From a phage: DNA of 64,000 bases. Numbering within the stretch: position 1 is the stretch's first letter; the number at the start of each line of letters is the position of its first letter. This document shows, piece after piece, positions 8,428 through 59,518 of this stretch. The stretch lies in assembly GCA_018865545.1 (NCBI GenBank), contig GCA_018865545.1_3633.1; one strand, given 5' to 3'. The notes under the pieces are model-generated. The model worked only from the letters and a program-made list of their open reading frames with translations. It searched no databases and was not told where the DNA came from. A program made the position numbers and the translations under genes.

Positions 8428-8738
8428 AAACCTTTACAAAAGAGCAGCTACTTAAGCATGTTCGCTCTAATGTTGACCATCTGAAAGACCTCCAACAGCG
8501 TGTTGGTGAGGCTGGAGATGAGTATAAGAAGATTTTTGACATGGTATCTCTTGATTTGGAGATTGCTAAGATCGCATTAAATGCATTAGAAGCAAAACCG
8601 ATTGGTGCTTTCCATATCGCAGAGCAGCAAGTCGATGGTACAAGCGATTATATCAAAGATGGGGAATGGCCCATTGATAACGGAACAATTGAAGTGTACA
8701 CTTCACCACTTGCTTTTACAAAGAGTAGCCGATATTAG
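8424..8738 (+). CDS. Hypothetical protein
   Basis: 104 aa ORF, ATGA overlap with upstream gene. Confidence 0.5.
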   Translation: MKTFTKEQLLKHVRSNVDHLKDLQQRVGEAGDEYKKIFDMVSLDLEIAKIALNALEAKPIGAFHIAEQQVDGTSDYIKDGEWPIDNGTIEVYTSPLAFTKSSRY

Positions 8739-8792
8739 ATAATTTACCAAAAATGGGTTTCTTTGGCATATTTTTCACAAATGGTTCTTATT

Positions 8793-9662
8793 ATGAAAGA
8801 TAAAGTTTTTGTTCCGCCTATAAAATCGCAAGGGATTAAGACTAAACTGGTTCCGTGGATAAAGAGAATTGTTCCTAAAAACTTTAATGGGGTATGGGTC
8901 GAGCCGTTTATGGGGACTGGAGTTGTTGCCTTTAACGTTGCTCCTAAAGATGCATTATTATGTGATACAAACCCTCATTTGATTTCTTTTTATAATGCAT
9001 TGAAAAATAAAGATATAACAGGGGATCTTGTTAAGGATTTTTTATATCGTGAAGGTGAAAAACTCTTATTAAGTAATGGTGAGTATTATTATGAAGTCAG
9101 GGAAAGGTTTAATAATTACAAGGAACCTTTAGATTTTTTATTCTTAAATAGGTCTTGTTTTAATGGTATGATTAGGTTTAATAGTAAAGGAGGGTTTAAT
9201 GTTCCTTTTTGTAAAAAACCAAACAGATTTGCACAAGCATATATTACCAAGATTTCGAATCAAGTTGATAGGATTTCTGAAATAATATCAAAAGGGAACT
9301 ATACATTCTTGTGTCAGTCATTTGAAAAAACTATTGGCATGGTAAATAGGGATGATGTTGTTTATTGTGATCCTCCATATATTGGTAGGCATGTTGATTA
9401 TTTTAATTCATGGGGAGAGCGTGACGAGCGTTTATTATTTGAAACGTTATCATCTTTGAATGCTACATTTATAACGTCTACGTGGCATCATAATGATTAT
9501 AGGGAAAATAAGTACGTTCGTGATTTATGGTCATCTTTTAGAATATTGACGAAAGAACATTTTTATCATGTTGGAGCGTCCGAAAAAAACAGATCCCCGA
9601 TGGTAGAGGCGCTAATTACAAATATCAATTACTTACCCCAGGCTGAAGCTGCGAAATGTTGA
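8793..9662 (+). CDS. dam: DNA adenine (N6) methyltransferase, Dam-like
   Basis: [11 protein letters not shown] (FxGxG AdoMet motif) and VVYCDPPY (DPPY catalytic motif); start placed at MKDKVF; gene visibly more AT-rich than neighbours. Confidence 0.75.
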
Positions 9663-29650: not shown

Positions 29651-30771
29651 TTATTGAGGGACAGCAAGAATAAGATTAATGTTATCCATATTAGCTGTCT
29701 CTATTTGCTGATCAATCATATTCCGTAATTCTCCAGCATCTATTTTAATTGTTATTTCACCACTGACAGGCTCGGTAGGAATAACCATAGGAGCTACAAT
29801 TTGACCCGCAGTAGATCCGCCCGGCATCAAATTATGGGATTGAAGATAGTTGGCTTTATCCTGCATATGCCCAGCCCAAAGCGATGTCCACCAACTACTT
29901 AACATCCCTCCGGTAACAGCCATTAAGTCACCACCACCAAATGAATAAGCATTTCCAAGATCTTGTTTTTTAGCGTTCTTTTCACTATCGTTGGAATTTA
30001 CGTAGTCGTATCCCATAAGGGCAGCAGCAACGTAGGGATTTCGTATAGACCACCCTAGCAGCTTACCAAAAACCCCACTTCGTTTCCCACCACCTTTCCT
30101 ATCCCACGGTCCATTACCACCGCTATTACCTCCCCCAGATTTTGGTACGTCCGGCCCACCAAAAATTTCTTTAAGAATTTTTAATGTTCCCGTTATTCCA
30201 GCAATTTTAGCCAAGATTCTGAATACTCTAACCAAGGAAGCTGCGAAGAATAGAGCACCGAGACCCCAACCTACCCAGTTAGTCGCTTTTTGGAATGTCT
30301 CACTTTTCTTTATCCATTGTGGGATATACATGTTTAATTCTGCATTTATAAAAATGCAGACATTAGATATCGTATGTGCGATATCCATAAAGCCCTTTAT
30401 GAATCCAGAAGTAAATTGTCCAACTTTCTCAGCTAACGGTCCTTTAGCATCCAACATGTGGGACAAATCATTAAACGTCTTAGTTAATTCATCCCCAAAT
30501 CCACTTTCAAATATCTTATTTTGAAAGTTCATCCATGTTTGTTGTAAACGCTGCATAGCAACACGGTTGCTTTGTTGTGCCTTGGTAAGTGCACCACCTT
30601 TTCTTGCGGCCTCGGCATAATACTTAGCGACCAAAGGAAGAATTTTTGAAGCCTTTAGCTCCCCATTCTTCATCATATCCATTAATTTTGCAATGTCTAT
30701 AGATGAATCATTGAATGCTTCTTGTGTGGCTTTAAGGAATACATCAAGGGAACCAGGGATGCCCTCGGCTA
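29651..30771 (-). CDS. Tail tape measure protein, exon 2
   Basis: Frame stays open upstream of the ORF-track Met to 30771: AEGIPGSLDVFLKATQEAF...MDMMKNGELKASKILPLV; hydrophobic and Gly-rich segments typical of tape measure C-terminal regions. Confidence 0.55.
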
Positions 30772-31601
30772 CTTATTGTCCCCTCAGTTCGCTACACTGA
30801 GGCGGTGTGCTAAAACACCCGCCACATGTTTCCATGTGGAACAGACTATATCTTCCTCTGATTTTACAGAGGCCAACCATTTCGGAGCGGCTTCGCCCCT
30901 ACTCTCCTACACTCATCGGAGATAGTCGTTGAGCACATAACTTAAAGATTTTTTAATAAACGTCGCCAAGCATTTTTATGTTTTATCCTGTGGATAGTTG
31001 ATCTTGTTACACCAAACTCATTCATTAAAGATGTTGTATCCTCAAAACGCCTGTGGTAAATCCTAATAACTTGATCTTCTGTTAATTTGCAATTAGGATT
31101 TCTTTTTCCATCTACGGAGTTTAGACCTTTTGAGAAAGCATGTTTTTGGTTCTGCGACCTAGTAACATACTCCAGATTATCTTTGTGGTTGTTGGCCTTA
31201 TTACCATCTTTATGGTTAACTTCCATTTTTGGATGTGGCGGTTCACCAATGAATGTTAATGCGACTATCCTGTGTACAAGATACAATACACACTTTCCGT
31301 CTACCCTAAAGTAAACTCTTTTATATCCATTGTGTATTGTTTGCTCAGTTAGTTTCTTCCATGTACCTCTTTTTGTTGAAAAGATTGCACCATCTTCTCG
31401 ACAAAAGTACCCGTTATGTCCAGGCACGGGTCTAATCTCTAAGTTACTTCGCTGCGGATTGTCCATTGTTACATCTCCAAACTTTTTACTATACCTGAGA
31501 TAGTTATTCTCAGCCATTATTATGTTACCATAATAATTTAGTATTTGGTAGCTTTAGGAGTTCCCCGCAATTAGATTGGTTTTACAACAGCTAGTATGTC
31601 A
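30772..31601 (-). mobile_element. Group I intron in tape measure gene, carrying an HNH endonuclease ORF
   Basis: On minus strand: exon 1 ends ...CAGU (31602), intron ends in G (30772); P AAUUGCGGGGA (revcomp of 31562-31575), Q AAUCCGCAGCGAAG (revcomp of 31447-31460), R GCUCAACGACUAUCUCC (30915-30930), S AAGAUAUAGUCUG (30838-30852); splice gives ...IMAEELKQQL-AEGIPGSLDVF... Confidence 0.6.
30942..31517 (-). CDS. HNH homing endonuclease (HNH_3/NUMOD-type), intron-encoded
   Basis: 191 aa; LVHRIVALTFIGEPPHPKMEVNHKDGNKANNHKDNLEYV core and C-terminal HTH-like GVTRSTIHRI; annotated N-terminus overlaps intron Q element so the true start may be internal. Confidence 0.75.
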   Translation of the reverse strand: MAENNYLRYSKKFGDVTMDNPQRSNLEIRPVPGHNGYFCREDGAIFSTKRGTWKKLTEQTIHNGYKRVYFRVDGKCVLYLVHRIVALTFIGEPPHPKMEVNHKDGNKANNHKDNLEYVTRSQNQKHAFSKGLNSVDGKRNPNCKLTEDQVIRIYHRRFEDTTSLMNEFGVTRSTIHRIKHKNAWRRLLKNL

Positions 31602-32901
31602 ACTGTTGTTTTAATTCTTCAGCCATGATCTGACCTTTACCCATCATTTGTTGGATAGCGGTAATACCACGCTGGAATTTTACAGGATCAACCTGAAGTG
31701 CAGTAGCATATTCTGAGAAACCTTTGAACAGTTCGTCATTTTGCGCCTTGCTCAAAACACCTTTGGCAGATATGGACATTTGGGTATAACCTTGGGCGGC
31801 GGTTTTTAAATCCAAACCCAATCTGTAAGATTGCTCCCGAACAAACTGTATTCTTTTCGCTGCTTCTTCTGAGTCATCAGAAACCATTAACATGGTAGCT
31901 TCCATGCCTTGAAAGAATTGTCCTGTTTTCACAACACTTGCGGCAGCATTAAAAGCTCCGTATGCAGCAGAAACACTAATTAATGTGCTACGAAGGTTTT
32001 TCAATCCTTGATCAAGAGATAGTGTATTTGCCTTAGCTTTGCGGAGTCCTGTTTCCATTGCTGCCAATTCAGCACGGAAATTAGAAGCTCTCATAGTCTG
32101 GCTTTGCATAAATCTCTTTTCCAGATCATCATAACCTTTAATTTTAGACCTGAAATCATCACCATACTTAGCACGAAGTCTTACAGCAGCATTAGCAATT
32201 GTTGATTGTTTTGCAGCCTTTATCCTTTCTGCTCTTAACGCTTCTCTTTCTTTCTTCTTATTAGCATCTTTTTCTGCCTTAATCTCATCCGCTGTTTTTT
32301 CTTTCGGAATAGATTTATGATAGCGTTCCATAGCAGAGTTCTGGGCAGCCACAAGACTTGGATCGTGACGACTATTAGGATCCCCAACAATACCAGAGGC
32401 AGACCCTGAAGACTTTCTTGCTGCAAGTTCTTGCTGCAATCTTGCTTGACGGGCAGCAGATATTTCTGGATTTGTTCCATATCCAGAACCTGTTTTTTCC
32501 ATCTGCTTCAACTTTGATTTTAATGCATTATATTCTTTTTGTTCTTCAGGTGTTCTTCTGTTTGTTAGTCTGGCTACTGCTTGCTTTCTTCTCGCGCTCT
32601 CAACTTTGGCTATTTGTTCACGAGCACGAGCTTCCTTTTTTGCCATTGCAATAGCATGTGCCGTAGATTTTGCTTGCTCTGCACGTTCAGTTTGGTGTAA
32701 TCTTTTAGCTACAAGACGAGCCTCTTGCGCAGAACGTTTATAAATTGCTGCCGGATTACTTTTATTAGAAGTGAAAGCTCTGTTAGTCTTTTCCCATTCC
32801 TTCTTCAGGGATTTTATAGCTTTCATTGCACGACCGTAACTGGTGCGATCTACAGACCACTCGACAGCATTTACGGTTTTAGTTACTATGATATTCGCCA
32901 T
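31602..32901 (-). CDS. Tail tape measure protein, exon 1
   Basis: Long coiled-coil, Ala/Lys/Glu-rich N-terminal part then ...GITAIQQMMGKGQIMAEELKQQL, typical of tape measure proteins; in-frame stop follows the proposed 5' splice site. Confidence 0.6.
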
Positions 32902-37299: not shown

Positions 37300-37818
37300 T
37301 CAATAATACCTGTGTTTTGGGTATCTCCGAGGAATACCGGGAACTCCTGTTTGAGGAACTATACCGGAAACATCAAACGGGCTTCTTGAGTTAGGATTAC
37401 TCTTAACACGCCAAAACTCATCCTGTCGCACACCGCCCACAATAACCAAACCAGAGACACCATTCAGGCAGCTATTGACGTAATCAGGGTTTTGCAGTAG
37501 CCAGTCCAGAAAATCTTTCCAGTTCTGATAGGAAGATCCACCTTTTACCTGTATCGTCTCATCACCTATCTTTTCCAATCTTTCTGTGATGGATGCCTCG
37601 CCAGAATTTATCTCTTGAAGAATTAACCATCTTAATACAGCCACCATTGTGTTATAGACCACTTTCCACATGTCGCAAGGCGTGGATGATGGGTTAGGCC
37701 AGTTTGCTCTTTTTTTCTCTATCTCAAGGAATGCCATGATAACTTCATCAGGTAGTGCCTCTGGGGATATTGACCCAAGCAGGAGCCTGATGTAATCAAC
37801 AATTTCTTGGTCTGTCAT
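37300..37818 (-). CDS. Head-tail connector / head completion protein (putative)
   Basis: 172 aa ORF in neck cluster. Confidence 0.4.
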   Translation of the reverse strand: MTDQEIVDYIRLLLGSISPEALPDEVIMAFLEIEKKRANWPNPSSTPCDMWKVVYNTMVAVLRWLILQEINSGEASITERLEKIGDETIQVKGGSSYQNWKDFLDWLLQNPDYVNSCLNGVSGLVIVGGVRQDEFWRVKSNPNSRSPFDVSGIVPQTGVPGIPRRYPKHRYY

Positions 37819-37890
37819 CTAACTCTCCATTTTATGTTACTTGTCAGTAACTATATTATCACAAAATACAATTTTTGTCATTAAAAACGC

Positions 37891-37918
37891 TTGACACGAA
37901 AAATTCCGTAGGTAAGAT
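37891..37918 (+). promoter_or_regulatory. Sigma70-like promoter candidate (TTGACA-N16-TAAGAT)
   Basis: ttgaca 37891-37896, 16 nt spacer, taagat 37913-37918, upstream of plus-strand ORF 37946. Confidence 0.45.
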
Positions 37919-37945
37919 AAACACAACAATTGCTATGGAGGATTT

Positions 37946-38350
37946 ATGAAAAATATTTTAAAAATTACAATTGGTCTGTGCGTCTGTGCTGTTATTGCAG
38001 CGGGAACTCTCCAATATGTGAAAAAGAACCCAGATATTAATGATTATAAATCTGTCGAGGCAAGTTGGTTGTCGCCAGAAGAAAAAGATGAGGCAATTAG
38101 CCGTATTGTACAATTATCTTGCGATAAGAGATTCAGAGAAGCATTTAAACCAGGCGTTATTGTTGTGTCATCAGGTTTCGAGGGTAGGATAGCAGAACAG
38201 GCGGAAGCATATCAATATTTTGATGATGTCGCAATTATCTCAGGAAAACAATCTTACACTGGAAAATACATCTGCACTTTTTACAAAGATGGGCGGGAAG
38301 TGTATATTAATGCAAACTTGGATAAAGGAGTGCAAGGAATCCTAAAATAA
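37946..38350 (+). CDS. Secreted or membrane-anchored small protein on opposite strand inside the late module
   Basis: 134 aa; N-terminal hydrophobic segment ILKITIGLCVCAVIAAGTL; own promoter candidate and terminator; AT-rich; convergent with flanking tail genes. Confidence 0.5.
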   Translation: MKNILKITIGLCVCAVIAAGTLQYVKKNPDINDYKSVEASWLSPEEKDEAISRIVQLSCDKRFREAFKPGVIVVSSGFEGRIAEQAEAYQYFDDVAIISGKQSYTGKYICTFYKDGREVYINANLDKGVQGILK

Positions 38351-38372
38351 AAGACCCCGAAGGGTCTTTTTA
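38351..38372. terminator. Bidirectional rho-independent terminator
   Basis: agacccc-gaag-gggtct hairpin flanked by A-run and T-run, between convergent genes. Confidence 0.6.
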
Positions 38373-38630
38373 TCACGACATAATACCAGCGGCTTTCAAT
38401 TTGGCAAGCAAAGCATTAAAATCGTTGACCAACGTAGAGACATCTGAAGCCACAGAATCTGCTTGTGTTTGTGCTTTCTTAACACCTCCTAATACTGATT
38501 CCGTAGCCGCTGGAAGAACATAGCTATCTGAGCCTCCAGCAACAATATCTTCGATTTTCACAGATTTTCCAGTTTTTATATCAATAAGGCTTGATGCATA
38601 TACTTTACCTGCTACGCCATTTGTTGCCAT
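38373..38630 (-). CDS. Small protein paralogous to tail fiber N-terminal domain
   Basis: 85 aa; GVAGKVYASSLIDIKTGKSVKIEDIVAGG parallels the N-terminus of ORF 40815-42065 (GVGGLIYGRALVDQKTGKKINFDELGGG). Confidence 0.45.
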   Translation of the reverse strand: MATNGVAGKVYASSLIDIKTGKSVKIEDIVAGGSDSYVLPAATESVLGGVKKAQTQADSVASDVSTLVNDFNALLAKLKAAGIMS

Positions 38631-38641
38631 ATTTTCTCCTT

Positions 38642-40252
38642 TTAACTTGTGTAACTATATTGAACAACATAGTTAAATTCATGTGAGGCTTCATCAGCAC
38701 CTGCTTCGGGTATTACTCCAGCTAACCCAGAATTACCAGCCCCACGAAGAAGTTTCTTGATTTCCTTTGTCTCAGGGTCGATGGTATGCGTGGGAACTGT
38801 TGGTAGAATAAGCCATACAGCCACTGTAGGTTTCTCTGATCCGACAACCTTGGGGTATTCTGCATAGATATCGTAATCAAGATATGTACCATCTTCCATA
38901 CAAGGTAGTTCTCTCAAGCGAACATCTGTAATAACATTTGTGCTGCCAGCAGGCGCGCTATACAGGGTGACTGTTGTTTTCAAATATATAGAAGACCCAG
39001 ACCTCCCTACCGCTTTATCAGCCGAAGGTGTATCTCTATAATTGAAAGAAAAATTCCCAGATGTTGCTGACAACCTCATAGACGGCTGAGGGGAAAATGG
39101 GATATTAAAGCTCGCTTGTTGACTTGAATCATCTGTCATTGTAAAAGTTAGTGTAACCTGTTGTGCGTTATCAACTTCTTTCACAACAGCATTAACAGAT
39201 TTTATTGTTTGACCATCAGGTGCTTTTGGTATTCCCAAATTTAAGACCTGTGATGGTGATTGACCAGTTATTTCAATAGTAGGTTGTGATCCACTATCTA
39301 AAACAGTAACTGTGCCAGCAGACAGTGTGTAAGCATTATCAGAGATCTGCTTTTTAACAAATTCTACGTTGGCAATCTGGGTTCCTATTGCTGAGTCACT
39401 TGGTGTCGGGCTTTGTGGTGTACCAGTGAACACAGGGCCATCAAGATCTGCCTTAAGGGAGATAAGACGTTTTAGTCCTTCAACATCAACCTTCAGGTTT
39501 TCCCATCCGATGAGATAACCACTACCAGTTGTATGATAACGGTTGTACCAAAAATCCCCGTTAACACCGAAAAAGAATATCCCTTTCTCTTCGTATTGTG
39601 GACCAGAACTGTTCCGTGATGTACTAATATATTTTATTTCGATAAGTCCGTTGAATACCACTCCTGGAATTATTTTATCTTCCCCTGCCAATTGTGATAC
39701 TTGGTAAACCCCTGGTGTTGCTGCTCTAACCCATGTTAAGAACTCTGATGTTCCAGAGTTGCCACTAAAATTTTTTGTACTAGTGAGTATTGCTCCAAAA
39801 CCAAACGCACCAGGTATAGCGGCAACACCTTCTGTACGATCATAAAGCCATTCTTGTACTTTAGTAGGTGCAACATACAACCCCTCTTCACCTTCAGAAG
39901 TTAGATTTGTTAAAGTATTTCCTTCTTTAGGAGATATAGGGATATTTATTTCGGGCGCTGTTACATATAATGCCCCTTGTTTCAACTCCAACAGGTTATT
40001 TGCAGCAGGGCTAACCTTAACAGCTAACCCATTATCTCCAGCTTGGAGAGCATTATTTTCATCTTCTGCCACCACAACAACACCTTTAAGTGGTGTTGCT
40101 TTTTCACCATTACCTGAAAGTTTTATGGTCGCGGTGTCTTCTGTGTATAATTTAAAAGATTGGCTTGGGAGTCCTGATCCTCCAATACTATGCCCATCTG
40201 GAAGTATGACTTCAGCATTGACAACTTTATCCTTATAATCCATAACTACCAC
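38642..40252 (-). CDS. Tail fiber protein
   Basis: 536 aa; GPVFTGTPQSPTPSDSAIGTQIANVEFV motif shared with ORFs 17186-18940 and 40815-42065. Confidence 0.6.
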   Translation of the reverse strand: MVVMDYKDKVVNAEVILPDGHSIGGSGLPSQSFKLYTEDTATIKLSGNGEKATPLKGVVVVAEDENNALQAGDNGLAVKVSPAANNLLELKQGALYVTAPEINIPISPKEGNTLTNLTSEGEEGLYVAPTKVQEWLYDRTEGVAAIPGAFGFGAILTSTKNFSGNSGTSEFLTWVRAATPGVYQVSQLAGEDKIIPGVVFNGLIEIKYISTSRNSSGPQYEEKGIFFFGVNGDFWYNRYHTTGSGYLIGWENLKVDVEGLKRLISLKADLDGPVFTGTPQSPTPSDSAIGTQIANVEFVKKQISDNAYTLSAGTVTVLDSGSQPTIEITGQSPSQVLNLGIPKAPDGQTIKSVNAVVKEVDNAQQVTLTFTMTDDSSQQASFNIPFSPQPSMRLSATSGNFSFNYRDTPSADKAVGRSGSSIYLKTTVTLYSAPAGSTNVITDVRLRELPCMEDGTYLDYDIYAEYPKVVGSEKPTVAVWLILPTVPTHTIDPETKEIKKLLRGAGNSGLAGVIPEAGADEASHEFNYVVQYSYTS

Positions 40253-42602: not shown

Positions 42603-42675
42603 AAAATCTCCTTTTATTCCTTAGTAAAAACCACTTGACAACACAGGATAAGTGGCTATTATTAAGGTCAGAATG

Positions 42676-42709
42676 TGAAAAAAGGGGAGGTGATAATTCA
42701 CCTCCCCTC
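42676..42709 (-). terminator. Rho-independent terminator (minus strand) downstream of major capsid gene
   Basis: ggggaggtga-taat-tcacctcccc hairpin followed on minus strand by tttttt. Confidence 0.65.
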
Positions 42710-49572: not shown

Positions 49573-49922
49573 CGTTTTTGTTCAGATAAGATCGCTACTC
49601 TTATCCCGCACCACTACGTGCTGCTGCATGTCACCATGCAGATCAGACTATATCTTGTGTGTTATTACACACCCCCCCTGTTTCGGCGGTTGATAATCAA
49701 CCGGAGGTTTCCCTCACCGCTTGGCCCTAACGCCCGTAAGCGATAGTCGTTGAACGTTCATCCCGTAGGGATGCTTCGCTGCGGATTGTCTAAACATTCA
49801 CACTGTTACTATACTCAACGTCATTACCGTTGACCATAAATATGTTACCATACCTACTTAGTGGTGATATGTATAAAGAGTTACCCGTCAATTAAAGGGG
49901 TTTATAGAGAGCACACTGTTCT
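49573..49922 (-). mobile_element. ORF-less group I intron in terminase gene
   Basis: Minus-strand P AAUUGACGGGUAAC (revcomp of 49880-49893), Q AAUCCGCAGCGAAG (49774-49787), R GUUCAACGACUAUCG (49741-49756), S AAGAUAUAGUCUGAUCUG (49636-49650); preceding exon ends in U, intron ends in G. Confidence 0.5.
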
Positions 49923-49955
49923 ACCCTCATCGAAACCTATAAAGGTATATTGCAA
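49923..49955 (-). CDS. terL: Terminase large subunit mini-exon (Walker B region), inferred
   Basis: Minus-strand frame LQYTFIGFDEG, hydrophobic run plus DE = Walker B-like, in frame with exon starting 49572 to give ...FIGFDEG-TQFTWSQIDYL...; bounded by intron-like sequence on both sides. Confidence 0.4.
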
Positions 49956-53935: not shown

Positions 53936-54008
53936 TGTGACGGACAGGGTTCGAACCTGTGACCACCTAGTCTTCAGCAAGGCACTCTACCAACTGAGTT
54001 ACCGTCAC
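53936..54008 (-). tRNA. tRNA-Phe (GAA)
   Basis: Acceptor GTGACGG/CCGTCAC, D arm ACTC-AGTTGGTA-GAGT, anticodon loop CTGAAGA, T arm ACAGG-TTCGAAC-CCTGT; CCA encoded. Confidence 0.8.
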
Positions 54009-54016
54009 ATGATTGG

Positions 54017-54090
54017 TAGGCGATGAGGGACTCGAACCCCCAAAATTCAGGTTCTAAGCCTGACATGTATACCAATTCCATCAATCGCCC
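54017..54090 (-). tRNA. tRNA with anticodon UAG (Leu by anticodon) but short variable arm, atypical
   Basis: Acceptor GGGCGAT/ATCGCCT (G1-U72), anticodon stem TCAGG/CCTGA, loop CTTAGAA, 5 nt variable region, T arm GGGGG-TTCGAGT-CCCTC; CCA encoded. Confidence 0.5.
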
Positions 54091-54104
54091 ATTTATATCA
54101 ACAG

Positions 54105-54296
54105 TTATGGTTTTCCACGATACACAGAAATAGTTTTCCCATTGGCATTGATAACATAAGCTGTCTGATCCTCAGACAAAAACACTTTTTGGTCAATACC
54201 TGAAATAGCTATAGACTTTTGATGAGCACAATACCCAACAATTTTCCCACAAAAAATTTGTTCATCATTTGGAGATACGACTTTAACTGTTAACAT
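54105..54296 (-). CDS. Hypothetical small protein within tRNA cluster
   Basis: Start moved to internal ATG 54296 because the annotated N-terminus overlaps tRNA-Pro. Confidence 0.3.
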   Translation of the reverse strand: MLTVKVVSPNDEQIFCGKIVGYCAHQKSIAISGIDQKVFLSEDQTAYVINANGKTISVYRGKP

Positions 54297-54341
54297 GGTA
54301 TCCTCTGTACATTTCTGCTTTGATATGTATATGTTTGTTGG

Positions 54342-54416
54342 TCTGTCCGGTTGGATTTGAACCAACGACCTGATCATCCCAAGTGACCCGCGCTACCCAA
54401 GCTGCGCTACGGACAG
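54342..54416 (-). tRNA. tRNA-Pro (UGG)
   Basis: Acceptor CTGTCCG/CGGACAG, D arm GCGC-AGCTTGGGTA-GCGC, anticodon stem GGTCA/TGATC, loop CTTGGGA, T arm GTTGG-TTCAAAT-CCAAC; CCA encoded. Confidence 0.8.
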
Positions 54417-54503
54417 AGAAATGTAGATTTTAATTGTCCCAGAATCTACTAACTGGTATCGCTGGCTAGGTGATATCTGTGACTTGATTAAGTCAAGAAT
54501 TGG

Positions 54504-54591
54504 CGGTTCCTGAAGGATTCGAACCTTCGGTGGGGAGATTCCTCCCAACGGCTTAACAGGCCGTCACCATCGACCACTCGGTCAAAGAACC
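54504..54591 (-). tRNA. Type II (long variable arm) tRNA with anticodon GUU (Asn by anticodon), atypical
   Basis: Acceptor GGTTCTT/AGGAACC, 3 bp D stem with GAGTGGTCGA loop, anticodon stem ACGGC/GCCGT, loop CTGTTAA, variable hairpin GGGAG-GAAT-CTCCC, T arm GAAGG-TTCGAAT-CCTTC, discriminator G, CCA encoded. Confidence 0.5.
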
Positions 54592-54603
54592 AGAATATTT
54601 TGG

Positions 54604-54677
54604 TGGATCTGGTTAGATTCGAACTAACAATCCCTCGATTAAAAGTCGAGTGCCTTAAACCATTTGGCTACAGATCC
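54604..54677 (-). tRNA. tRNA-Lys (UUU)
   Basis: Acceptor GGATCTG/CAGATCC, anticodon stem CTCGA/TCGAG, loop CTTTTAA, T arm GTTAG-TTCGAAT-CTAAC; CCA encoded. Confidence 0.75.
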
Positions 54678-54907
54678 TTTAAATTATCTTTAAAATAGCT
54701 AATTACTCGCACATAATTAGCTATACGCAACAGCCCTCTAGGGAGGGCACACTAATGATAGATTACGATTACATGACCATCATGAGTGTTTGACTTACGC
54801 CAGTAAAGAGCGGACTGCTCTGGGGTATCGGTAAAGTGGTTACCGCCACTTGCCGAAGATTTACTCTGCTAAAGTAAGAATAACAAGCTACATTAAAGAT
54901 AACTTGG

Positions 54908-54993
54908 AGGAGGCTGACAGAATCGAACTGTCACCATATCTCTACAGCGGGACTGGGTTCAAACCAGCTTGTGCACCATGCACCCCAGCCTCC
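54908..54993 (-). tRNA. tRNA-Ser (UGA), type II, atypical D arm
   Basis: Acceptor GGAGGCT/AGCCTCC, anticodon stem GCTGG/CCAGT, loop TTTGAAC, long variable region, T arm GACAG-TTCGATT-CTGTC; D region forms a tight GTGCA/TGCAC hairpin; CCA encoded. Confidence 0.55.
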
Positions 54994-55074
54994 AAAAATT
55001 GCCTCTGCCGAGAATATACACCCAACAAAGACGGCGCTCAGGTCCGAAGAAATCTGAGCCTTGACATACAGTGG

Positions 55075-55165
55075 AGGAAGATGCCAGACTTGAACTGGCA
55101 CACCCATTTCTGGGTTACTATCTCCTTAGCAGGGAGACCCCTTACCAAATTAGGGTTAATCTTCC
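55075..55165 (-). tRNA. tRNA-Ser (GCU), type II
   Basis: Acceptor GGAAGAT/ATCTTCC, anticodon stem TCTCC/GGAGA, loop CTGCTAA, long variable arm, T arm GCCAG-TTCAAGT-CTGGC; CCA encoded. Confidence 0.65.
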
Positions 55166-55189
55166 AATACCTTAGTAATTAAAAACTGG

Positions 55190-55276
55190 CGGAGAAGGAG
55201 AGAATCGAACTCTCAAGCCGTTTTACCAGTCAGCACATTTCCAATGTGTTTTCGTCGCCAATCGATTTGCTTCTCC
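55190..55276 (-). tRNA. tRNA-Ser (GGA)-like, type II, tentative
   Basis: Acceptor GGAGAAG/CTTCTCC, T arm GAGAG-TTCGATT-CTCTC, candidate anticodon loop TTGGAAA with imperfect stem; CCA encoded; D arm not well resolved. Confidence 0.45.
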
Positions 55277-55288
55277 GTTTTAACTTGG

Positions 55289-55361
55289 CAGGGGATGGTT
55301 GATTCGAACAACCGATCACGGGGTCAAAGCCCGTTGCATTAGGCCACTATGCTAATCCCCT
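55289..55361 (-). tRNA. tRNA-Gln (UUG)
   Basis: Acceptor AGGGGAT/ATCCCCT, D arm GCAT-AGTGGCCTA-ATGC, anticodon stem ACGGG/CCCGT, loop CTTTGAC, T arm GGTTG-TTCGAAT-CAACC; CCA encoded. Confidence 0.8.
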
Positions 55362-55365
55362 TTTG

Positions 55366-55444
55366 CACGAGAGTGAGGAATCGAACCTCTTAGTCACTGG
55401 TTTTGGAGGCCAGCCTTCACCCAGTGAAGTTACGCTACTCTCAT
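55366..55444 (-). ncRNA. tRNA-like sequence, unassigned
   Basis: Acceptor-like pairing ATGAGAG/CTCTCGT and T arm GAGG-TTCGATT-CCTC, but central region forms a long CACTGG/CCAGTG helix instead of canonical D and anticodon arms. Confidence 0.3.
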
Positions 55445-55450
55445 TAAAAA

Positions 55451-56008
55451 CTATTTTCGGAAAGGACTTATGAAAAATGCCAACATCACTCTCTCTCTTG
55501 AAAAAGCTCTGTCTTCAGGAACCACACTCTTCAGTTTCCAACCGACATAAATTCGCCAGTAAAATTGTTTTCCAAACAATCTAAAAGACGGGACAAACGC
55601 GAATACACCCCACGCATTGTCATTCCACATCAACAAATAGCCTTGTTGATTATCCTCCACATCAGAGCTTACATGGATGTTTCCTTTCCACTTTGTCACA
55701 GATGTGATTTCACGTCCAAGTGCGTGATAGGAGAAATTGTAGGCTTTATTTCTCCACAACCAAGCAACTCGTTGCAGATAAACACCAAAACTCCCTATCT
55801 TACGAACTTCTGCCCATCTCTCTATGTGTCCTTTATCACCATCTATAGGATTATCATATGTTTCCATCCACCTGAAAATATAAGGTAGATGCCCTGTCTT
55901 CTCATTATAGAACGGAACAACAAAAGGAGCCAGAATAACACAGAGAACCGACATAACTGGGTCAAGAGGTGCTAACAGAATCCACGATAAATATTTCAAG
56001 TATCTCAT
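55451..56008 (-). CDS. Hypothetical membrane protein
   Basis: 185 aa; N-terminal hydrophobic helices (LSWILLAPLDPVMSVLCVILAPFVVPF); Trp-rich. Confidence 0.45.
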   Translation of the reverse strand: MRYLKYLSWILLAPLDPVMSVLCVILAPFVVPFYNEKTGHLPYIFRWMETYDNPIDGDKGHIERWAEVRKIGSFGVYLQRVAWLWRNKAYNFSYHALGREITSVTKWKGNIHVSSDVEDNQQGYLLMWNDNAWGVFAFVPSFRLFGKQFYWRIYVGWKLKSVVPEDRAFSRERVMLAFFISPFRK

Positions 56009-56235
56009 GCAGGATCAAGCCTAGATATAATGTACTGGTTTAAATCTGAATATGGGAAGATACTTTCAAAGATAACCTGTTTAAATCTGAAACCGCACAA
56101 ACCGAAAAGTACCTTCTGACACTCCCCAAAAGAACAATCTTTACCAACTTTTATCACAACCGTATCGGCAACCTGCACACTTTCTATCTCTTTAGGTTCA
56201 TGATGCCGTACTATGATTACTTTAGAAACCATCAT
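56005..56235 (-). CDS. Hypothetical protein
   Basis: 76 aa ORF overlapping downstream gene start by 4 nt. Confidence 0.4.
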   Translation of the reverse strand: MMVSKVIIVRHHEPKEIESVQVADTVVIKVGKDCSFGECQKVLFGLCGFRFKQVIFESIFPYSDLNQYIISRLDPA

Positions 56236-56363
56236 ACTCGTCCGTATTAAAGCCTTCTACTATAGATAGTAGATGTCTAGGGTTGGACCGCAAACTCAAC
56301 CCCATGGAATTTGTTACGGTCTTCAGTTGACCCAAGCGGATTTCATTGACATCTTTTAACTGG

Positions 56364-56435
56364 AGCATCCAGAGGGTATCGAACCCTCGACTACAGCTTG
56401 GAAGGCTGTAGTTTTCCCAATTAAACTATGGATGC
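56364..56435 (-). tRNA. tRNA-Gly (UCC)
   Basis: Acceptor GCATCCA/TGGATGC, D stem GTTT/AAAC, anticodon stem ACAGC/GCTGT, loop CTTCCAA, T arm GAGGG-TTCGATA-CCCTC, discriminator U as expected for Gly; CCA encoded. Confidence 0.8.
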
Positions 56436-56443
56436 ATATTTGG

Positions 56444-56516
56444 TGGGAGTGGTAGGCTCTGCCCCTACGTCCTCTCGATTATCGGTCGAGCGATCTACTA
56501 ACTGATCTACACTCCC
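56444..56516 (-). tRNA. tRNA-Ile (GAU) with unusual T loop
   Basis: Acceptor GGGAGTG/CACTCCC, D arm GATC-AGTTAGTA-GATC, anticodon stem CTCGA/TCGAG, loop CCGATAA, T stem GTAGG/CCTAC but loop GGCAGAG lacks TTC; CCA encoded. Confidence 0.6.
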
Positions 56517-56587
56517 AAACTGTACTGACCCAACAACCACGATTGGAGGGTATCGTCACACATCAAAGCCAGTACAGATTCAGTTGG

Positions 56588-56674
56588 TGTGCCGTGATAG
56601 AGTCGAACTACCCGAGTCCCTTTCGAGACAGGAGATTTACAGTCTCCCCCGCTACCCCTACGGTCTAACGACAC
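56588..56674 (-). tRNA. tRNA-Tyr (GUA), type II
   Basis: Acceptor GTGTCGT/ACGGCAC, anticodon stem GGAGA/TCTCC, loop CTGTAAA, long variable arm, T arm GGTAG-TTCGACT-CTATC; CCA encoded. Confidence 0.65.
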
Positions 56675-56675
56675 A

Positions 56676-57023
56676 TTAACCTTGTTTGAATTGAACAATA
56701 TCCGTCGAGAATGGTTTAGCTGCCTTAATAGGAGCTTTTTCTGAGTTATCTTTTTCGAGTAACTCTTCGTTTTCCTCATCAAAGTAATCAGAAAGCATCT
56801 GCTCACCTTTCTCAATAACATAACGAGCGATATTTTCTCTGATATTGTCTTTTGTATTCACATTCTTCATCAAATCCCTAAGAACCTGATGAGCTTCAGG
56901 AATCATTGCAATCAGATTCGTTTTCAAATCTAGGATATTTTTCTCTAACTGAATTGCATTAGATTCCTCTTTCAGAGGACGACCTTTCCCTCTTCTACGT
57001 TTTGTAAGCTGCTTAGTAGCCAT
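56676..57023 (-). CDS. Hypothetical protein
   Basis: Start moved to internal ATG 57023 (MATKQLTKRRRGKGRP...) because the annotated 5' part overlaps tRNA-Cys. Confidence 0.45.
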   Translation of the reverse strand: MATKQLTKRRRGKGRPLKEESNAIQLEKNILDLKTNLIAMIPEAHQVLRDLMKNVNTKDNIRENIARYVIEKGEQMLSDYFDEENEELLEKDNSEKAPIKAAKPFSTDIVQFKQG

Positions 57024-57111
57024 TTTAAAACCCCACTTAATGATATTATCAAATAAAAACATATCTGTCAAGTGGTATTTTAACATATTTACCAAGAAAT
57101 TGAAAGTTTGG

Positions 57112-57185
57112 AGCACGGTGTCGGACTTGAACCGACATATATCTGTTTTGCAGACAGATCCGTAACCAAATTCCGGCAACCGTGC
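57112..57185 (-). tRNA. tRNA-Cys (GCA)
   Basis: Acceptor GCACGGT/ACCGTGC, anticodon stem TCTGT/ACAGA, loop CTGCAAA, T arm GTCGG-TTCAAGT-CCGAC, discriminator U as expected for Cys; CCA encoded. Confidence 0.8.
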
Positions 57186-57264
57186 AATAAGTACCCCGAG
57201 TAGAGAACCTATAGAGTGGGTCTTACGAGCCGCGCTGACGATTCTCAAGTTGGGGTTAATCTGG

Positions 57265-57338
57265 TCGAGGAGACAGGATTCGAACCTGTGACCTACGGCT
57301 TAGAAGGCCGCTGCTCTATCCAACTGAGCTACACCCCG
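57265..57338 (-). tRNA. tRNA-Arg (UCU)
   Basis: D arm GCTC-AGTTGGATA-GAGC, anticodon stem GCGGC/GCCGT, loop CTTCTAA, T arm ACAGG-TTCGAAT-CCTGT; acceptor has one U-U mismatch; CCA encoded. Confidence 0.7.
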
Positions 57339-57538
57339 AGAATAAGAATGCTTTATAGTGTATGGTTACTCAACCTCACCCCAACTTCCACAGTTGGTGC
57401 TCTACGAGCATGACTACGTTTGAAATCAACGTTGCGCACCGATAGCTTTCTCACGCATTGTATGCCTCATTCCCAACAAATGCTGATCAGGCATTTATAT
57501 CGAATAATATAAGCTAATACACTATAAAACAAACTTGT

Positions 57539-57635
57539 GGCTGGGTGATGGAATCGAACCACCTATGTATTCAACGGCTAGCCCGTCTATTTTCAGGATT
57601 ATAAATCCTCGCCCTTGCCAAAGGGCTTACCCAGC
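57539..57635 (-). ncRNA. tRNA-like sequence with oversized variable region, anticodon uncertain (possibly UAU)
   Basis: Acceptor GCTGGGT/ACCCAGC, perfect D arm GCCC-TTTGGCAA-GGGC, T arm GGTGG-TTCGATT-CCATC, but about 30 nt between anticodon arm and T arm. Confidence 0.35.
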
Positions 57636-57640
57636 ATTGG

Positions 57641-57712
57641 TGCTCGCAGCAGGTTTCGAACCTGCAACCCCCTGCTTACAAGGCAGGTGCTCTACCGTTG
57701 AGCTATACGAGC
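57641..57712 (-). tRNA. tRNA-Thr (UGU)
   Basis: Acceptor GCTCGTA/TGCGAGC, D arm GCTC-AACGGTA-GAGC, anticodon stem CCTGC/GCAGG, loop CTTGTAA, T arm GCAGG-TTCGAAA-CCTGC; CCA encoded. Confidence 0.8.
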
Positions 57713-58077
57713 AATAAGACATTGCTTCCGATTAACAGCCTTGAGGCTTTACAGACCATATCTTGTGAGCCATAACCTGTGCCAAGGATTTCAGATGATA
57801 AACGAAATTTTATCTTTCAAGAATTAACTTTCAAGTTTCATCTTTTACATTTGACCATTGACCTTTATTGTATGAACTTTTACTTAGTGGAAACAACAAG
57901 GCATCTTCGTGTGCCTCGCTGCATCTATGTCCTGTATTATCCTCATACATATACGATACATGGTGGGGAATATTTAACCTCCAATCCCCAGGAGGCAAGA
58001 TGATGTAAACTTCGTTAATCAAAAGCAATGTTTTAAATTTCAAAACAAAGGAACGATAATGATATTATCAGAGCCTT

Positions 58078-58725
58078 TTAGAGAGAGTGCTCAATCTCAA
58101 TTTCTGTCTTAGCGTTTGACTCAGACAACGCAAAATCAACGTTAGACAAGAAATCTTCAATCTCTTCTTCAAGAGAACGAATCTTAGAAGCCAGTTCAAG
58201 AGGATCCACAACCGATGGTGTGTTCATCATTCGAATGGGAGCTTCCACAGTCTTAATCTGCTCTGCATCTGGCGCTTTATCACGTTGGATATATGGCGCT
58301 CTGGCATTTTCAAGTTTATCTTCCAGAGATTTTTCTTCTTTTGCCAGAAGAAGCTGTGCAGAAGCACGCTGTGCACAAAGTTTGTTTAACAACTCTTGTT
58401 TAAAGCAAATCGTCCGTTTGCGTTCGATTGCCTCAGCAACTGTCATAGACACCTTACCAATTTTGACAATTGTCTCAGCATTAGACTTGACAATTTTTGC
58501 CTTCAGTTCATCGCGAACTGCCAAGAGGTCTTGCAGACTTTGATAGTCGTTGATCGCAGATTTCTTAAAATCATCAACAGAGCCGATATAACCAGGAATC
58601 TTACAATTATTCTCAGTTCCTTTTGCAATCTTAATACATTCAAGGTTATAAATACGCTTATTGATCTTATCTTCAATCTTAGAGATAGAAGCAAGTGCAC
58701 GAGTTACGGAAATCTTAGTAGACAT
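58078..58725 (-). CDS. Hypothetical protein
   Basis: 215 aa ORF, predicted coiled-coil segments. Confidence 0.45.
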   Translation of the reverse strand: MSTKISVTRALASISKIEDKINKRIYNLECIKIAKGTENNCKIPGYIGSVDDFKKSAINDYQSLQDLLAVRDELKAKIVKSNAETIVKIGKVSMTVAEAIERKRTICFKQELLNKLCAQRASAQLLLAKEEKSLEDKLENARAPYIQRDKAPDAEQIKTVEAPIRMMNTPSVVDPLELASKIRSLEEEIEDFLSNVDFALSESNAKTEIEIEHSL

Positions 58726-59066
58726 TCAATCTCTCCTATGTAAATTAGCTTTGATAAAGTAACTATACAGAAAAACAAAAACTATGTCAAGAAAAATTTT
58801 AATCTTTTACAGCATCTTTTATAGAATCACAAAGATCTTGGACAAGATCAGATGTCGGTGACAAAATCATCTCGTCTGCTGCTGCTATAGCATCTGATGC
58901 TAAATCAACAAACGGAGTTGTTACCGCAGCAGTCACTTCAACAGCCGTTGTTGTTACATCGCTTGCAATCTTAAGCAAAGATCCTATCATAATCTCAACC
59001 CTCCTGAATGTCCGTGATTCCCTTTGTTTAATGACGCTGGCTCACGGTGGCACTCTCGTCAGTAAA

Positions 59067-59390
59067 TTATTTTTTAGTTTTCTTAACGTTTTCTACAGGA
59101 GTGCTTGTTTTCTGTTTCACTTCTCGTTCACGCTTTGTTTTCCCAGTACGGATACGATAGGAAGCAGAAATCACTTCACCACCAATGACACGAGACACAG
59201 ATTCATAATACATTTCAGTATTACCGTCTTCATCTTTGCGTTTTTTCAGAACTGCTACAGTTTGCGTTTTGCCACCAAGACGCACATCGTGCGGTGCAGA
59301 ATGTGTCTGCGTGGATTTTGATTCAAACTGAAAAGGTTGCTTGATCGCCTCGATAGCTGATACCTTTTTAGCAGACTGTTTCTTAGCCAT
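59067..59390 (-). CDS. Hypothetical basic protein (possible nucleic-acid binding)
   Basis: 107 aa, Lys/Arg-rich N- and C-termini. Confidence 0.4.
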   Translation of the reverse strand: MAKKQSAKKVSAIEAIKQPFQFESKSTQTHSAPHDVRLGGKTQTVAVLKKRKDEDGNTEMYYESVSRVIGGEVISASYRIRTGKTKREREVKQKTSTPVENVKKTKK

Positions 59391-59445
59391 TAAGTTTTCT
59401 CCTCCGAAAACAATAAACCTAGTTTATTTCGTGTGCCACATTTGG

Positions 59446-59518
59446 TGGCCCCTGCTGGACTTGAACCAGCGACCAAGCGATTATGAGTCACCTGCTCTAA
59501 CCACTGAGCTAAGGGGCC
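59446..59518 (-). tRNA. tRNA-Met (CAU), second copy (initiator, elongator or Ile-lysidine type not resolved)
   Basis: Acceptor GGCCCCT/AGGGGCC, D arm GCTC-AGTGGTTA-GAGC, anticodon loop CTCATAA, T arm GCTGG-TTCAAGT-CCAGC; CCA encoded. Confidence 0.75.

What the first reader, a model, noticed from the sequence alone, without database searches (positions are those of the whole stretch)
37891..38372. Opposite-strand secreted/membrane protein gene embedded among tail fiber and neck genes
A 134 aa ORF with an N-terminal hydrophobic anchor or signal sequence is encoded on the plus strand inside an otherwise minus-strand structural block. It has its own TTGACA-N16-TAAGAT promoter candidate and a bidirectional terminator, is AT-rich, and lies next to tail fiber genes. 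This moron-like arrangement is typical of superinfection-exclusion or receptor-masking proteins (inference).
Basis: inference. Interest (0 to 1): 0.5.

Follow-up and report, generated by a model that had tools for sequence, protein, structure and literature searches.

The report
Opposite-strand exported accessory protein gene
A real, conserved phage gene sits backwards inside the head/tail gene block with its own promoter and terminator and makes a small protein that is most likely anchored in the inner membrane and faces the periplasm. Relatives already carry it as a 'hypothetical membrane protein', and its function is unknown, so the finding is solid but fairly ordinary.

Summary
Window 37946..38350 (+) is a genuine 134-aa gene (dN/dS 0.08-0.14). 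It is the only plus-strand gene with its own non-overlapping space in the minus-strand structural block 16.5-53.5 kb of an Avunavirus-like (Vequintavirinae) phage. It has a sigma70-type promoter (37891-37918) whose -35 TTGACA is invariant in seven lineages while the spacer has diverged. A hairpin (38349-38370) fills the 22 nt between two convergent stop codons and shows a compensatory A-U/G-C change.

The protein has a positively charged N-tip, a 16-22-residue hydrophobic segment, no conserved lipobox, and a roughly 95-aa domain with two invariant cysteines. AlphaFold (pLDDT 87) gives a cystatin/NTF2-like alpha+beta roll. No characterised family matches it by sequence or fold (PHROG 11434 'membrane protein' only).

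The gene sits at the same spot in Avuna-, Seuna- and Mydovirus. It is absent there in rV5, CR3, a Henunavirus and an Aeromonas relative. Its base composition is not foreign, so 'AT-rich' is not distinctive.

Function is inferred, not shown. The leading guess is a periplasm-facing binder or inhibitor that acts on the envelope (superinfection exclusion or protection, about 0.35). The gene, its membrane prediction and both terminators were already annotated in PVP-SE1 (gp66). Interest is low to moderate.

The parts
37853..37881 (-). Back-to-back minus-strand sigma70-like promoter (ATGACA-N17-TGa-TAATAT) that restarts the adaptor/neck/tail operon after the terminator
   Evidence: 9/12 match, TG before the -10. 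The blocks TTTGTCAT and TATTATCA(C/T)A are conserved across lineages.
37891..37918 (+). Sigma70-type promoter of the ORF (TTGACA-N16-TAAGAT)
   Evidence: The -35 is invariant and the position is conserved in 7 lineages while the spacer has diverged.
37937..37941 (+). Shine-Dalgarno GGAGG, 4 nt before the ATG
   Evidence: Read directly from the sequence. GGAG is present in all 7 lineages.
37946..38350 (+). 134-aa ORF (stop TAA 38348-38350), member of PHROG 11434
   Evidence: dN/dS is 0.083 and 0.135.
37955..38020 (+). Codons 4-25: N-terminal hydrophobic signal-anchor (or long signal peptide)
   Evidence: AlphaFold places a helix at residues 2-27.
38063..38347 (+). Codons 40-134: cystatin/NTF2-like alpha+beta domain with invariant Cys59 and Cys110
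38349..38370 (.). Hairpin filling the gap between the two convergent stop codons; intrinsic terminator for both strands
   Evidence: compensatory pair. Annotated as two rho-independent terminators in PVP-SE1.
37300..37818 (-). Divergent neighbour: 172-aa head-tail adaptor (rV5 gp57 homologue)
   Evidence: PF26075 Phage_Adaptor_PhiTE hits the homologues.
38373..38630 (-). Convergent neighbour: 85-aa head-fibre-like protein whose transcript ends at the same hairpin
   Evidence: (PF11133, E 3e-17).

Best explanation
SHOWN. This is an independently transcribed accessory gene that has been fixed in one clade of Vequintavirinae (Avuna-, Seuna- and Mydovirus). A sigma70-type promoter, back-to-back with the promoter of the adaptor/neck operon, drives it. 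A hairpin squeezed between two convergent stop codons ends both this transcript and the oncoming head-fibre transcript.

INFERRED, topology. The product inserts N-in/C-out. It has a short positively charged N-tip and a 16-22-residue hydrophobic segment with no conserved lipobox. Its roughly 95-residue cystatin/NTF2-like domain would then sit in the periplasm, stabilised by a disulfide between the two invariant cysteines. It is either tethered to the inner membrane or released if signal peptidase cuts it.

INFERRED, function. It acts as a binding or inhibitory module in the periplasm of the infected cell, changing the envelope to the phage's advantage. The most likely specific role is to block entry of, or envelope damage by, superinfecting sister phages. 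That would be superinfection exclusion or protection from lysis-from-without, working like T4 Spackle/Imm. Interfering with a receptor or surface-glycan pathway is an alternative within the same class.

The confidence figure refers to this functional class. Confidence that it is a real, exported, self-contained accessory gene is about 0.9.
For: Real gene: purifying selection with dN/dS 0.083 against phage 18-1-2 and 0.135 against Av-05. Full-length PHROG 11434 match, E 3e-63. 66 phage records carry it.

Own expression signals: promoter, ribosome-binding site and hairpin are conserved in 7 lineages, with one compensatory pair in the hairpin. Exact TTGACA-N15-18-TAnnnT matches on the coding strand cluster in the tRNA/small-gene region at 57-64 kb (6 matches). 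There is only one on the coding strand of the late block, so this promoter resembles the presumed host-polymerase class.

Export: a +1/+2 N-tip, a hydrophobic segment in all 12 members, and exactly two invariant Cys in the C-terminal domain.

Accessory character: the gene is absent at this locus in rV5, CR3, a Henunavirus and a Plateaulakevirus, whose adaptor genes are homologous. It evolves faster than the adaptor, neck and sheath genes: 37-52% against 69-84% amino-acid identity to Mydo and PVP-SE1. A 1-nt frameshift removes the last roughly 20 residues in the deposited K54 Klebsiella phage lineage.

Precedent: T4 Spackle is a small, early, exported, disulfide-bonded periplasmic protein of a virulent myovirus (PMC7677548). 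The close relative Av-05 also encodes rIIA and rIIB.
Against: No experiment and no homology ties the protein to exclusion. Spackle is an alpha-helical bundle, not this fold. No lysozyme domain was detected by Pfam in the baseplate hub or spike ORFs of the window, so a Spackle-type target is not evident.

Sigma70-like promoters are spread over the whole rV5 genome (PMC3606486). The adjacent late-operon promoter is also sigma70-like. Early timing therefore does not follow from the promoter alone.

Topology and the disulfide are predicted, not measured. The positive-inside signal is modest: the flank after the hydrophobic segment also carries 1-3 Lys/Arg, partly offset by acidic residues.

Confidence: 0.35

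Rival explanations
1. Periplasmic inhibitor or modulator of a host factor, unrelated to exclusion. Targets could include an envelope protease, a peptidoglycan or outer-membrane enzyme, a membrane-bound defence system or a secretion machine. This would be host takeover or anti-defence acting in the envelope.
Against: By inspection of the family alignment and the model's loops, the cystatin inhibitory motifs (QxVxG hairpin, PW hairpin) are absent. There is no Pfam, NCBIfam or PADLOC hit. No target can be named. The fold match is generic.
Confidence: 0.2
2. Lysis-timing regulator: a membrane-tethered periplasmic antiholin or sensor that works like T4 RI, or another lysis accessory.
For: The N-terminal segment is 35-55% Gly/Ala/Ser/Thr, which is reminiscent of signal-anchor-release domains. 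The protein is small, tethered to the periplasm and dispensable. The relative Av-05 carries rIIA and rIIB. T4-type lysis genes are not always clustered (own knowledge).
Against: In Av-05 the endolysin and two small adjacent ORFs lie about 45 kb away. Lysis systems appear to differ among genera that all keep this gene: a SAR endolysin is reported for the Mydovirus KP12 (PMC9902359), and a modular endolysin with a cell-wall-binding domain for PVP-SE1 (PMC3352856 abstract). A spanin role is excluded. The periplasmic part is a compact alpha+beta globule, not a coiled coil, and neither embedded plus-strand ORF has a lipobox that would mark an o-spanin partner.
Confidence: 0.12
3. The selected feature is the transcriptional punctuation, and the protein is secondary or acts in morphogenesis. 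The terminator plus divergent promoters uncouple the head operon from the neck/tail operon. The protein might, for example, help fibre or head-fibre assembly at the membrane.
For: The hairpin and both back-to-back promoters are at least as conserved as the protein. The cassette always sits exactly at the head/neck module boundary. dS against Av-05 jumps across the promoter region (adaptor 0.19, ORF 0.66, head-fibre gene 0.86), so the gene shares its history with the fibre side.
Against: Purifying selection on the protein (dN/dS about 0.1), 18 invariant residues and a confidently folded domain show that the protein itself is selected. An exported domain cannot take part in cytoplasmic virion assembly. 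rV5 punctuates its head operon with a terminator alone, after the capsid gene.
Confidence: 0.1

Closest known systems
PHROG 11434 / PVP-SE1 gp66 / Av-05 Av05_0081 / Mydo gp241 ('hypothetical membrane protein')
   Same: Same family (E 3e-63, full length; 84-96% identity to Avunavirus copies, 37-52% to PVP-SE1 and Mydo). Same position and orientation. In PVP-SE1 the single transmembrane domain and two rho-independent terminators are already annotated.
   Different: Nothing essential. This is a new allele in a phage whose neighbouring fibre gene differs from those of its relatives. None of the family members has a known function.
T4 Spackle (gp61.3) and Imm: superinfection exclusion in a virulent myovirus
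   Same: A small exported protein with one disulfide, made independently of the late structural operons and acting in the periplasm or envelope (PMC7677548).
   Different: Spackle is a 75-aa alpha-helical bundle released by signal cleavage. This protein is an alpha+beta cystatin-like domain with a long hydrophobic segment. There is no sequence or fold similarity, and no lysozyme domain was detected in the hub or spike ORFs.
Morons of lambdoid phages (e.g. the HK97 gp15 exclusion protein)
   Same: An extra gene with its own promoter and terminator, inserted between genes that are adjacent in relatives. It encodes a membrane protein.
   Different: The phage belongs to a group described as lytic (Av-05), so there is no prophage expression. 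Base composition is not atypical. The insertion is old and vertically inherited across three genera.
Cystatin-fold inhibitors and VirB8-like bitopic NTF2-like proteins
   Different: Identity is 13% or less. Cystatin motifs are absent. The domain is smaller than a VirB8 domain. There are no Pfam hits. This is fold-level resemblance only.
Cor / Llp receptor-masking lipoproteins (T1, phi80, T5)
   Same: Small envelope proteins of phages that protect the infected cell or the progeny.
   Different: Those are lipoproteins. Here the N-terminal cysteines are not conserved and there is no lipobox.

Membership tests
PHROG 11434 (Vequintavirinae 'membrane protein') | Full-length profile match | tested here: met
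   E 3.3e-63, residues 1-134 of 134. tblastn finds 66 phage records.
Moron (Hendrix-type extra gene) | Own promoter upstream | tested here: met
   TTGACA-N16-TAAGAT, conserved in 7 lineages. Not mapped experimentally.
Moron (Hendrix-type extra gene) | Own factor-independent terminator downstream | tested here: met
   Hairpin 38349-38370 with a compensatory pair.
Moron (Hendrix-type extra gene) | Lies between genes that are adjacent in related phages | tested here: met
   No such gene upstream of the adaptor gene in rV5, CR3, 2L372X or pEa_SNUABM_56.
Moron (Hendrix-type extra gene) | Nucleotide composition unlike the surrounding genome | tested here: not met
   GC 37.0% against 39.8 +/- 3.0% (z -0.9); GC3 z -0.6.
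Moron (Hendrix-type extra gene) | Expressed from a prophage and benefits the lysogen | not testable with these tools
   The closest named relative, Av-05, is described as lytic. The feature probably does not apply.
Superinfection-exclusion proteins (T4 Sp/Imm, HK97 gp15, Sie2009 and similar) | Homology to a characterised exclusion family | tested here: not met
   No such hit in Pfam, PHROG, NCBIfam or PADLOC, in PDB by sequence or fold, or in BFVD.
Superinfection-exclusion proteins (T4 Sp/Imm, HK97 gp15, Sie2009 and similar) | Envelope localisation | tested here: inconclusive
   Predicted signal-anchor and two invariant Cys. No SignalP/TMHMM run and no experiment.
Superinfection-exclusion proteins (T4 Sp/Imm, HK97 gp15, Sie2009 and similar) | Expression blocks adsorption or DNA entry of the same or related phages | not testable with these tools
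   Requires wet-lab plating, adsorption and injection assays.
Bacterial or phage lipoprotein (Cor/Llp type) | Conserved lipobox L-x-x-C at the end of the signal sequence | tested here: not met
   Cys12 and Cys14 occur only in Avunavirus copies. Other members have Gly, Ala, Ile or Val there.
Two-component spanin (i-spanin) | Periplasmic coiled-coil domain, an adjacent or embedded o-spanin lipoprotein gene, and a position in the lysis cassette | tested here: not met
   The domain is a globular alpha+beta fold. The embedded ORFs have no lipobox. The endolysin lies elsewhere in Av-05.
Cystatin superfamily | Cystatin fold | tested here: met
Cystatin superfamily | QxVxG and PW inhibitory hairpin motifs, or sequence-family membership | tested here: not met
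   By inspection, the motifs are absent from the alignment. No Pfam cystatin hit.
VirB8-like T4SS proteins | Sequence membership (Pfam VirB8) and a full NTF2-like periplasmic domain of about 140 aa | tested here: not met

The most novel reading that the evidence does not exclude
The family is the founding member of a new, phage-restricted class of periplasmic cystatin-fold inhibitors. Virulent Vequintavirinae would use it to neutralise an envelope enzyme, either the cell-wall-degrading or injection apparatus of superinfecting phages or a host envelope protease or defence component. That would be a mechanism of exclusion or counter-defence not seen in T4, T5 or lambdoid phages.
Probability: 0.25. 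Interest if true: 0.55.

Novelty: new member of a known kind. Interest (0 to 1): 0.3.

Why it matters
Vequintavirinae relatives such as Av-05 and PVP-SE1 are broad-host-range phages proposed for therapy and biocontrol. A gene that changes the envelope of the infected cell could affect how the phages in a cocktail interfere with one another, and how lysis and adsorption behave.

The family is small and phage-restricted. An exhaustive profile search of 1.8 billion representative proteins found only four further clusters. It has a confident predicted structure and clean expression signals, which makes it an easy target for a knockout or an expression test.

As it stands, though, it is one more conserved hypothetical membrane protein. 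Public records already annotate the gene and its terminators.

Tried and rejected
Lipoprotein (Cor/Llp-like): rejected, because the N-terminal cysteines are not conserved.

Spanin: rejected, because the fold is globular, there is no embedded lipoprotein ORF and the lysis genes lie elsewhere.

Membership of the cystatin or VirB8 families: rejected, fold resemblance only.

Foreign, AT-rich island: rejected.

Chance antisense ORF: rejected, given its own gap, conservation and dN/dS.

Searches that gave nothing: Pfam, NCBIfam, PADLOC, PDB by sequence, Foldseek against PDB, and BFVD apart from the protein's own family. No Rfam family matches 37.8-38.4 kb.

The two long repeat proteins in the exhaustive search (P0008, P0009) are additive weak matches to repeats, not relatives.

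The first AlphaFold run with 4 sequences was unusable (pLDDT 50). The AFDB50 fold library was unavailable. The PVP-SE1 genome/proteome paper (PMC3194984) is not held, so I could not check whether gp66 was seen in virions.

The KP12 paper's '12 kDa putative membrane protein' virion band was assigned by size alone and is not evidence. Literature searches found no transcriptome or exclusion study of this clade.

The rV5 late motif TggTAaAAtA matches the ORF's -10 region at 8 of 10 positions (my own comparison with the motif quoted). I treat this as unresolved rather than as evidence of late expression.

Full report
WHAT THE WINDOW IS. The stretch 37300-38641 is 94% identical at the nucleotide level to Escherichia phages 18-1-2, 19-1-2, 24-2-1 and TH18, and 88% identical to Av-05 (genus Avunavirus, subfamily Vequintavirinae). 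From 16.5 to 53.5 kb, every gene-sized ORF with its own space is on the minus strand. This stretch is the structural block, running capsid, fibres, adaptor, neck, sheath, tube, tape measure and baseplate.

THE OBSERVATION. The ORF at 37946..38350 (+) encodes 134 aa. It occupies its own gap between the adaptor gene (37300..37818, minus strand) and an 85-aa head-fibre-like gene (38373..38630, minus strand; PF11133, E 3e-17). Beyond that lie three tail-fibre-like genes. The homologues of the 172-aa neighbour carry PF26075 (Phage_Adaptor_PhiTE).

The ORF is a real gene. dN/dS is 0.083 against 18-1-2 and 0.135 against Av-05. The adaptor, neck and sheath genes give 0.02-0.08 and the head-fibre gene gives 0.15-0.16 in the same comparisons. 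Its GC content (37.0%) is within the phage's range (39.8 +/- 3.0%, z -0.9), so 'AT-rich' is not a distinguishing feature.

EXPRESSION SIGNALS. The promoter TTGACA-N16-TAAGAT lies at 37891-37918. A match of this quality is not significant on its own. In seven lineages, however, the TTGACA is invariant and sits 54-60 nt before the ATG. These lineages are the window, 18-1-2, Av-05, PVP-SE1, Mydo and two metagenomic contigs. In all of them the 16-17-nt spacer is unrelated in sequence, and each has a TAnnnT hexamer and a GGAG ribosome-binding site.

Immediately upstream, on the other strand, lies a second conserved promoter, ATGACA-N17-TGaTAATAT (37881 to 37853), facing the adaptor/neck operon. The two -35 boxes are 9 nt apart.

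Downstream, the 22 nt between the two convergent stop codons (TAA at 38348-38350 and TGA at 38373-38375 on the other strand) are filled by a hairpin. AAAAGACCC pairs with GGGTCTTTT around a CGAA loop. Free energy is -11.4 kcal/mol on the plus strand and -14.4 on the minus strand, with T runs on both. One stem pair is A-U in the three Avunavirus sequences and G-C in the other four, a compensatory change. In one metagenomic lineage (L012) the plus-strand T run is lost, so there the element mainly terminates the head operon.

GenBank record GU070616 (PVP-SE1) already annotates two rho-independent terminators here and calls gp66 a 'hypothetical membrane protein' with one transmembrane domain.

TIMING. 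Exact TTGACA-N15-18-TAnnnT matches on the coding strand cluster in the tRNA/small-gene region at 57-64 kb (six matches). There is only one on the coding strand of the late block. That pattern, together with the opposite orientation, suggests transcription by unmodified host polymerase and hence early expression.

This remains inference. The rV5 paper reports sigma70-like promoters all over the genome and a separate late motif, TggTAaAAtA (PMC3606486). The adjacent late-operon promoter is also sigma70-like. The ORF's -10 region (AGGTAAGATA) matches that late motif at 8 of 10 positions by my own comparison.

THE PROTEIN. All 12 available family members have the same plan. There is a +1/+2 N-tip with no acidic residue, then an uncharged segment of 16-22 residues (Kyte-Doolittle 19-residue maximum 2.05-2.35), then a K-x-x-P-D/N motif, and exactly two cysteines in the remainder, both invariant (Cys59 and Cys110). 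Cys12 and Cys14 of the window protein are not conserved, so there is no lipobox.

The length of the hydrophobic segment favours an uncleaved signal-anchor. Small residues at positions 18-21 in every member leave signal-peptidase cleavage possible.

With a 12-sequence alignment AlphaFold2 gives pLDDT 87.4 and pTM 0.73. The model has a transmembrane helix at 2-27, a long helix at 44-64, five antiparallel strands at 72-125 and a short C-terminal helix. A 4-sequence run had failed.

DISTRIBUTION. tblastn finds the protein in 66 of 50,697 phage records. All records listed that carry a genus assignment are Avunavirus, Seunavirus or Mydovirus, with 37-96% identity. An exhaustive profile search of 1.84 billion representative proteins adds only four clusters; two further hits are repeat-protein artefacts.

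In every context examined the gene has the same position and orientation. The adaptor gene occurs in 268 records. In rV5 (Vequintavirus), CR3 (Certrevirus), pEa_SNUABM_56 (Henunavirus) and Aeromonas phage 2L372X, nothing is encoded on the opposite strand upstream of it.

The cassette is therefore an insertion, or a loss in the other genera, that has been stably inherited in one clade. It diverges two to three times faster than the flanking structural genes.

Against Av-05, dS rises from 0.19 in the adaptor gene to 0.66 in this ORF and 0.86 in the head-fibre gene. A recombination boundary therefore lies near the divergent promoters, and the gene shares its history with the fibre side.

In the K54 Klebsiella phage lineage a 1-nt deletion truncates the last roughly 20 residues. 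If this is not a sequencing error, it indicates the gene is dispensable for propagation.

INTERPRETATION. What is shown is a self-contained, conserved accessory gene for a small protein with an N-terminal hydrophobic segment. What is inferred is an N-in/C-out topology and a disulfide-stabilised periplasmic cystatin-like domain that acts as a binder or inhibitor in the envelope.

The leading functional guess (about 0.35) is superinfection exclusion or protection of the envelope. This rests on analogy with T4 Spackle, which is an early, exported, disulfide-bonded periplasmic protein but an alpha-helical bundle (PMC7677548).

Three rivals remain. The first is a periplasmic inhibitor of a host factor or defence system (0.2). 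The second is a lysis-timing regulator (0.12). That idea is weakened by the distance of the lysis genes in Av-05 and by the apparently different endolysin types in genera that share this gene. The third is that the punctuation element is what is selected, with the protein secondary or morphogenetic (0.1). Purifying selection on an exported protein contradicts it.

Spanin and lipoprotein readings are rejected.

VERDICT. The 'moron-like' anatomy is supported, but the unit is old and compositionally native. The exclusion or receptor-masking function is plausible and untested.

The gene, its membrane prediction and its terminators are already annotated in relatives. The novelty lies only in the unknown function of a small, phage-restricted family with a cystatin-like fold. 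Interest is 0.3.

Noticed in passing
window 42627-42708: A second conserved plus-strand sigma70-like promoter lies in the late block with no ORF behind it. TTGACA-N16-TATTAT (42635-42662) is embedded in an inverted repeat, CCACTT-N13-AAGTGG. It points into the strong capsid-gene terminator hairpin (GGGGAGGTGA-TAAT-TCACCTCCCC, T6 on the minus strand) and runs antisense to the capsid gene. It is conserved in PVP-SE1, Mydo and a metagenomic contig, and weakened in 18-1-2 and L009. It may be an antisense or small-RNA promoter, or a regulator binding site.
   Followed up: partly
window 29651-32901: The tape-measure gene appears to be split in this phage. ORFs of 343 aa and 436 aa (the latter with TMP_3) are separated by a 191-aa HNH endonuclease ORF (30942..31517, PF13392). 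Av-05 has a single 2382-nt tape-measure gene. This may be a homing-endonuclease or intron insertion.
   Followed up: partly
window 49624-49950 (-): A group I intron (Rfam RF00028, 66 bits, E 1.3e-14) lies between ORFs in the packaging region. The rV5 paper reports an intron in the large terminase gene.
   Followed up: no
window 53936-59518 (-): A cluster of 14 tRNA genes is interspersed with several exact TTGACA-type promoters.
   Followed up: no
window 38641/38642: Nucleotide similarity to all close relatives stops exactly at the end of the head-fibre-like gene. The 536-aa fibre gene at 38642..40252 is not shared with 18-1-2 or Av-05 at megablast level. This looks like a fibre-module swap next to the finding.
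   Followed up: no
L017 (PQ569687.1) 710-1075: Klebsiella phage K54 recombinants and K54lambda1.1.1 carry a 1-nt deletion (GATGGT to GAGGT) in the homologous gene. The product ends after residue 121 with an altered tail.
   Followed up: yes
L002 (OK136180.1) 8647-9051: In phages 18-1-2, 19-1-2, 24-2-1 and TH18 the homologue is annotated 'adenosine deaminase'. No family search supports this, so it appears to be a mis-annotation.
   Followed up: yes
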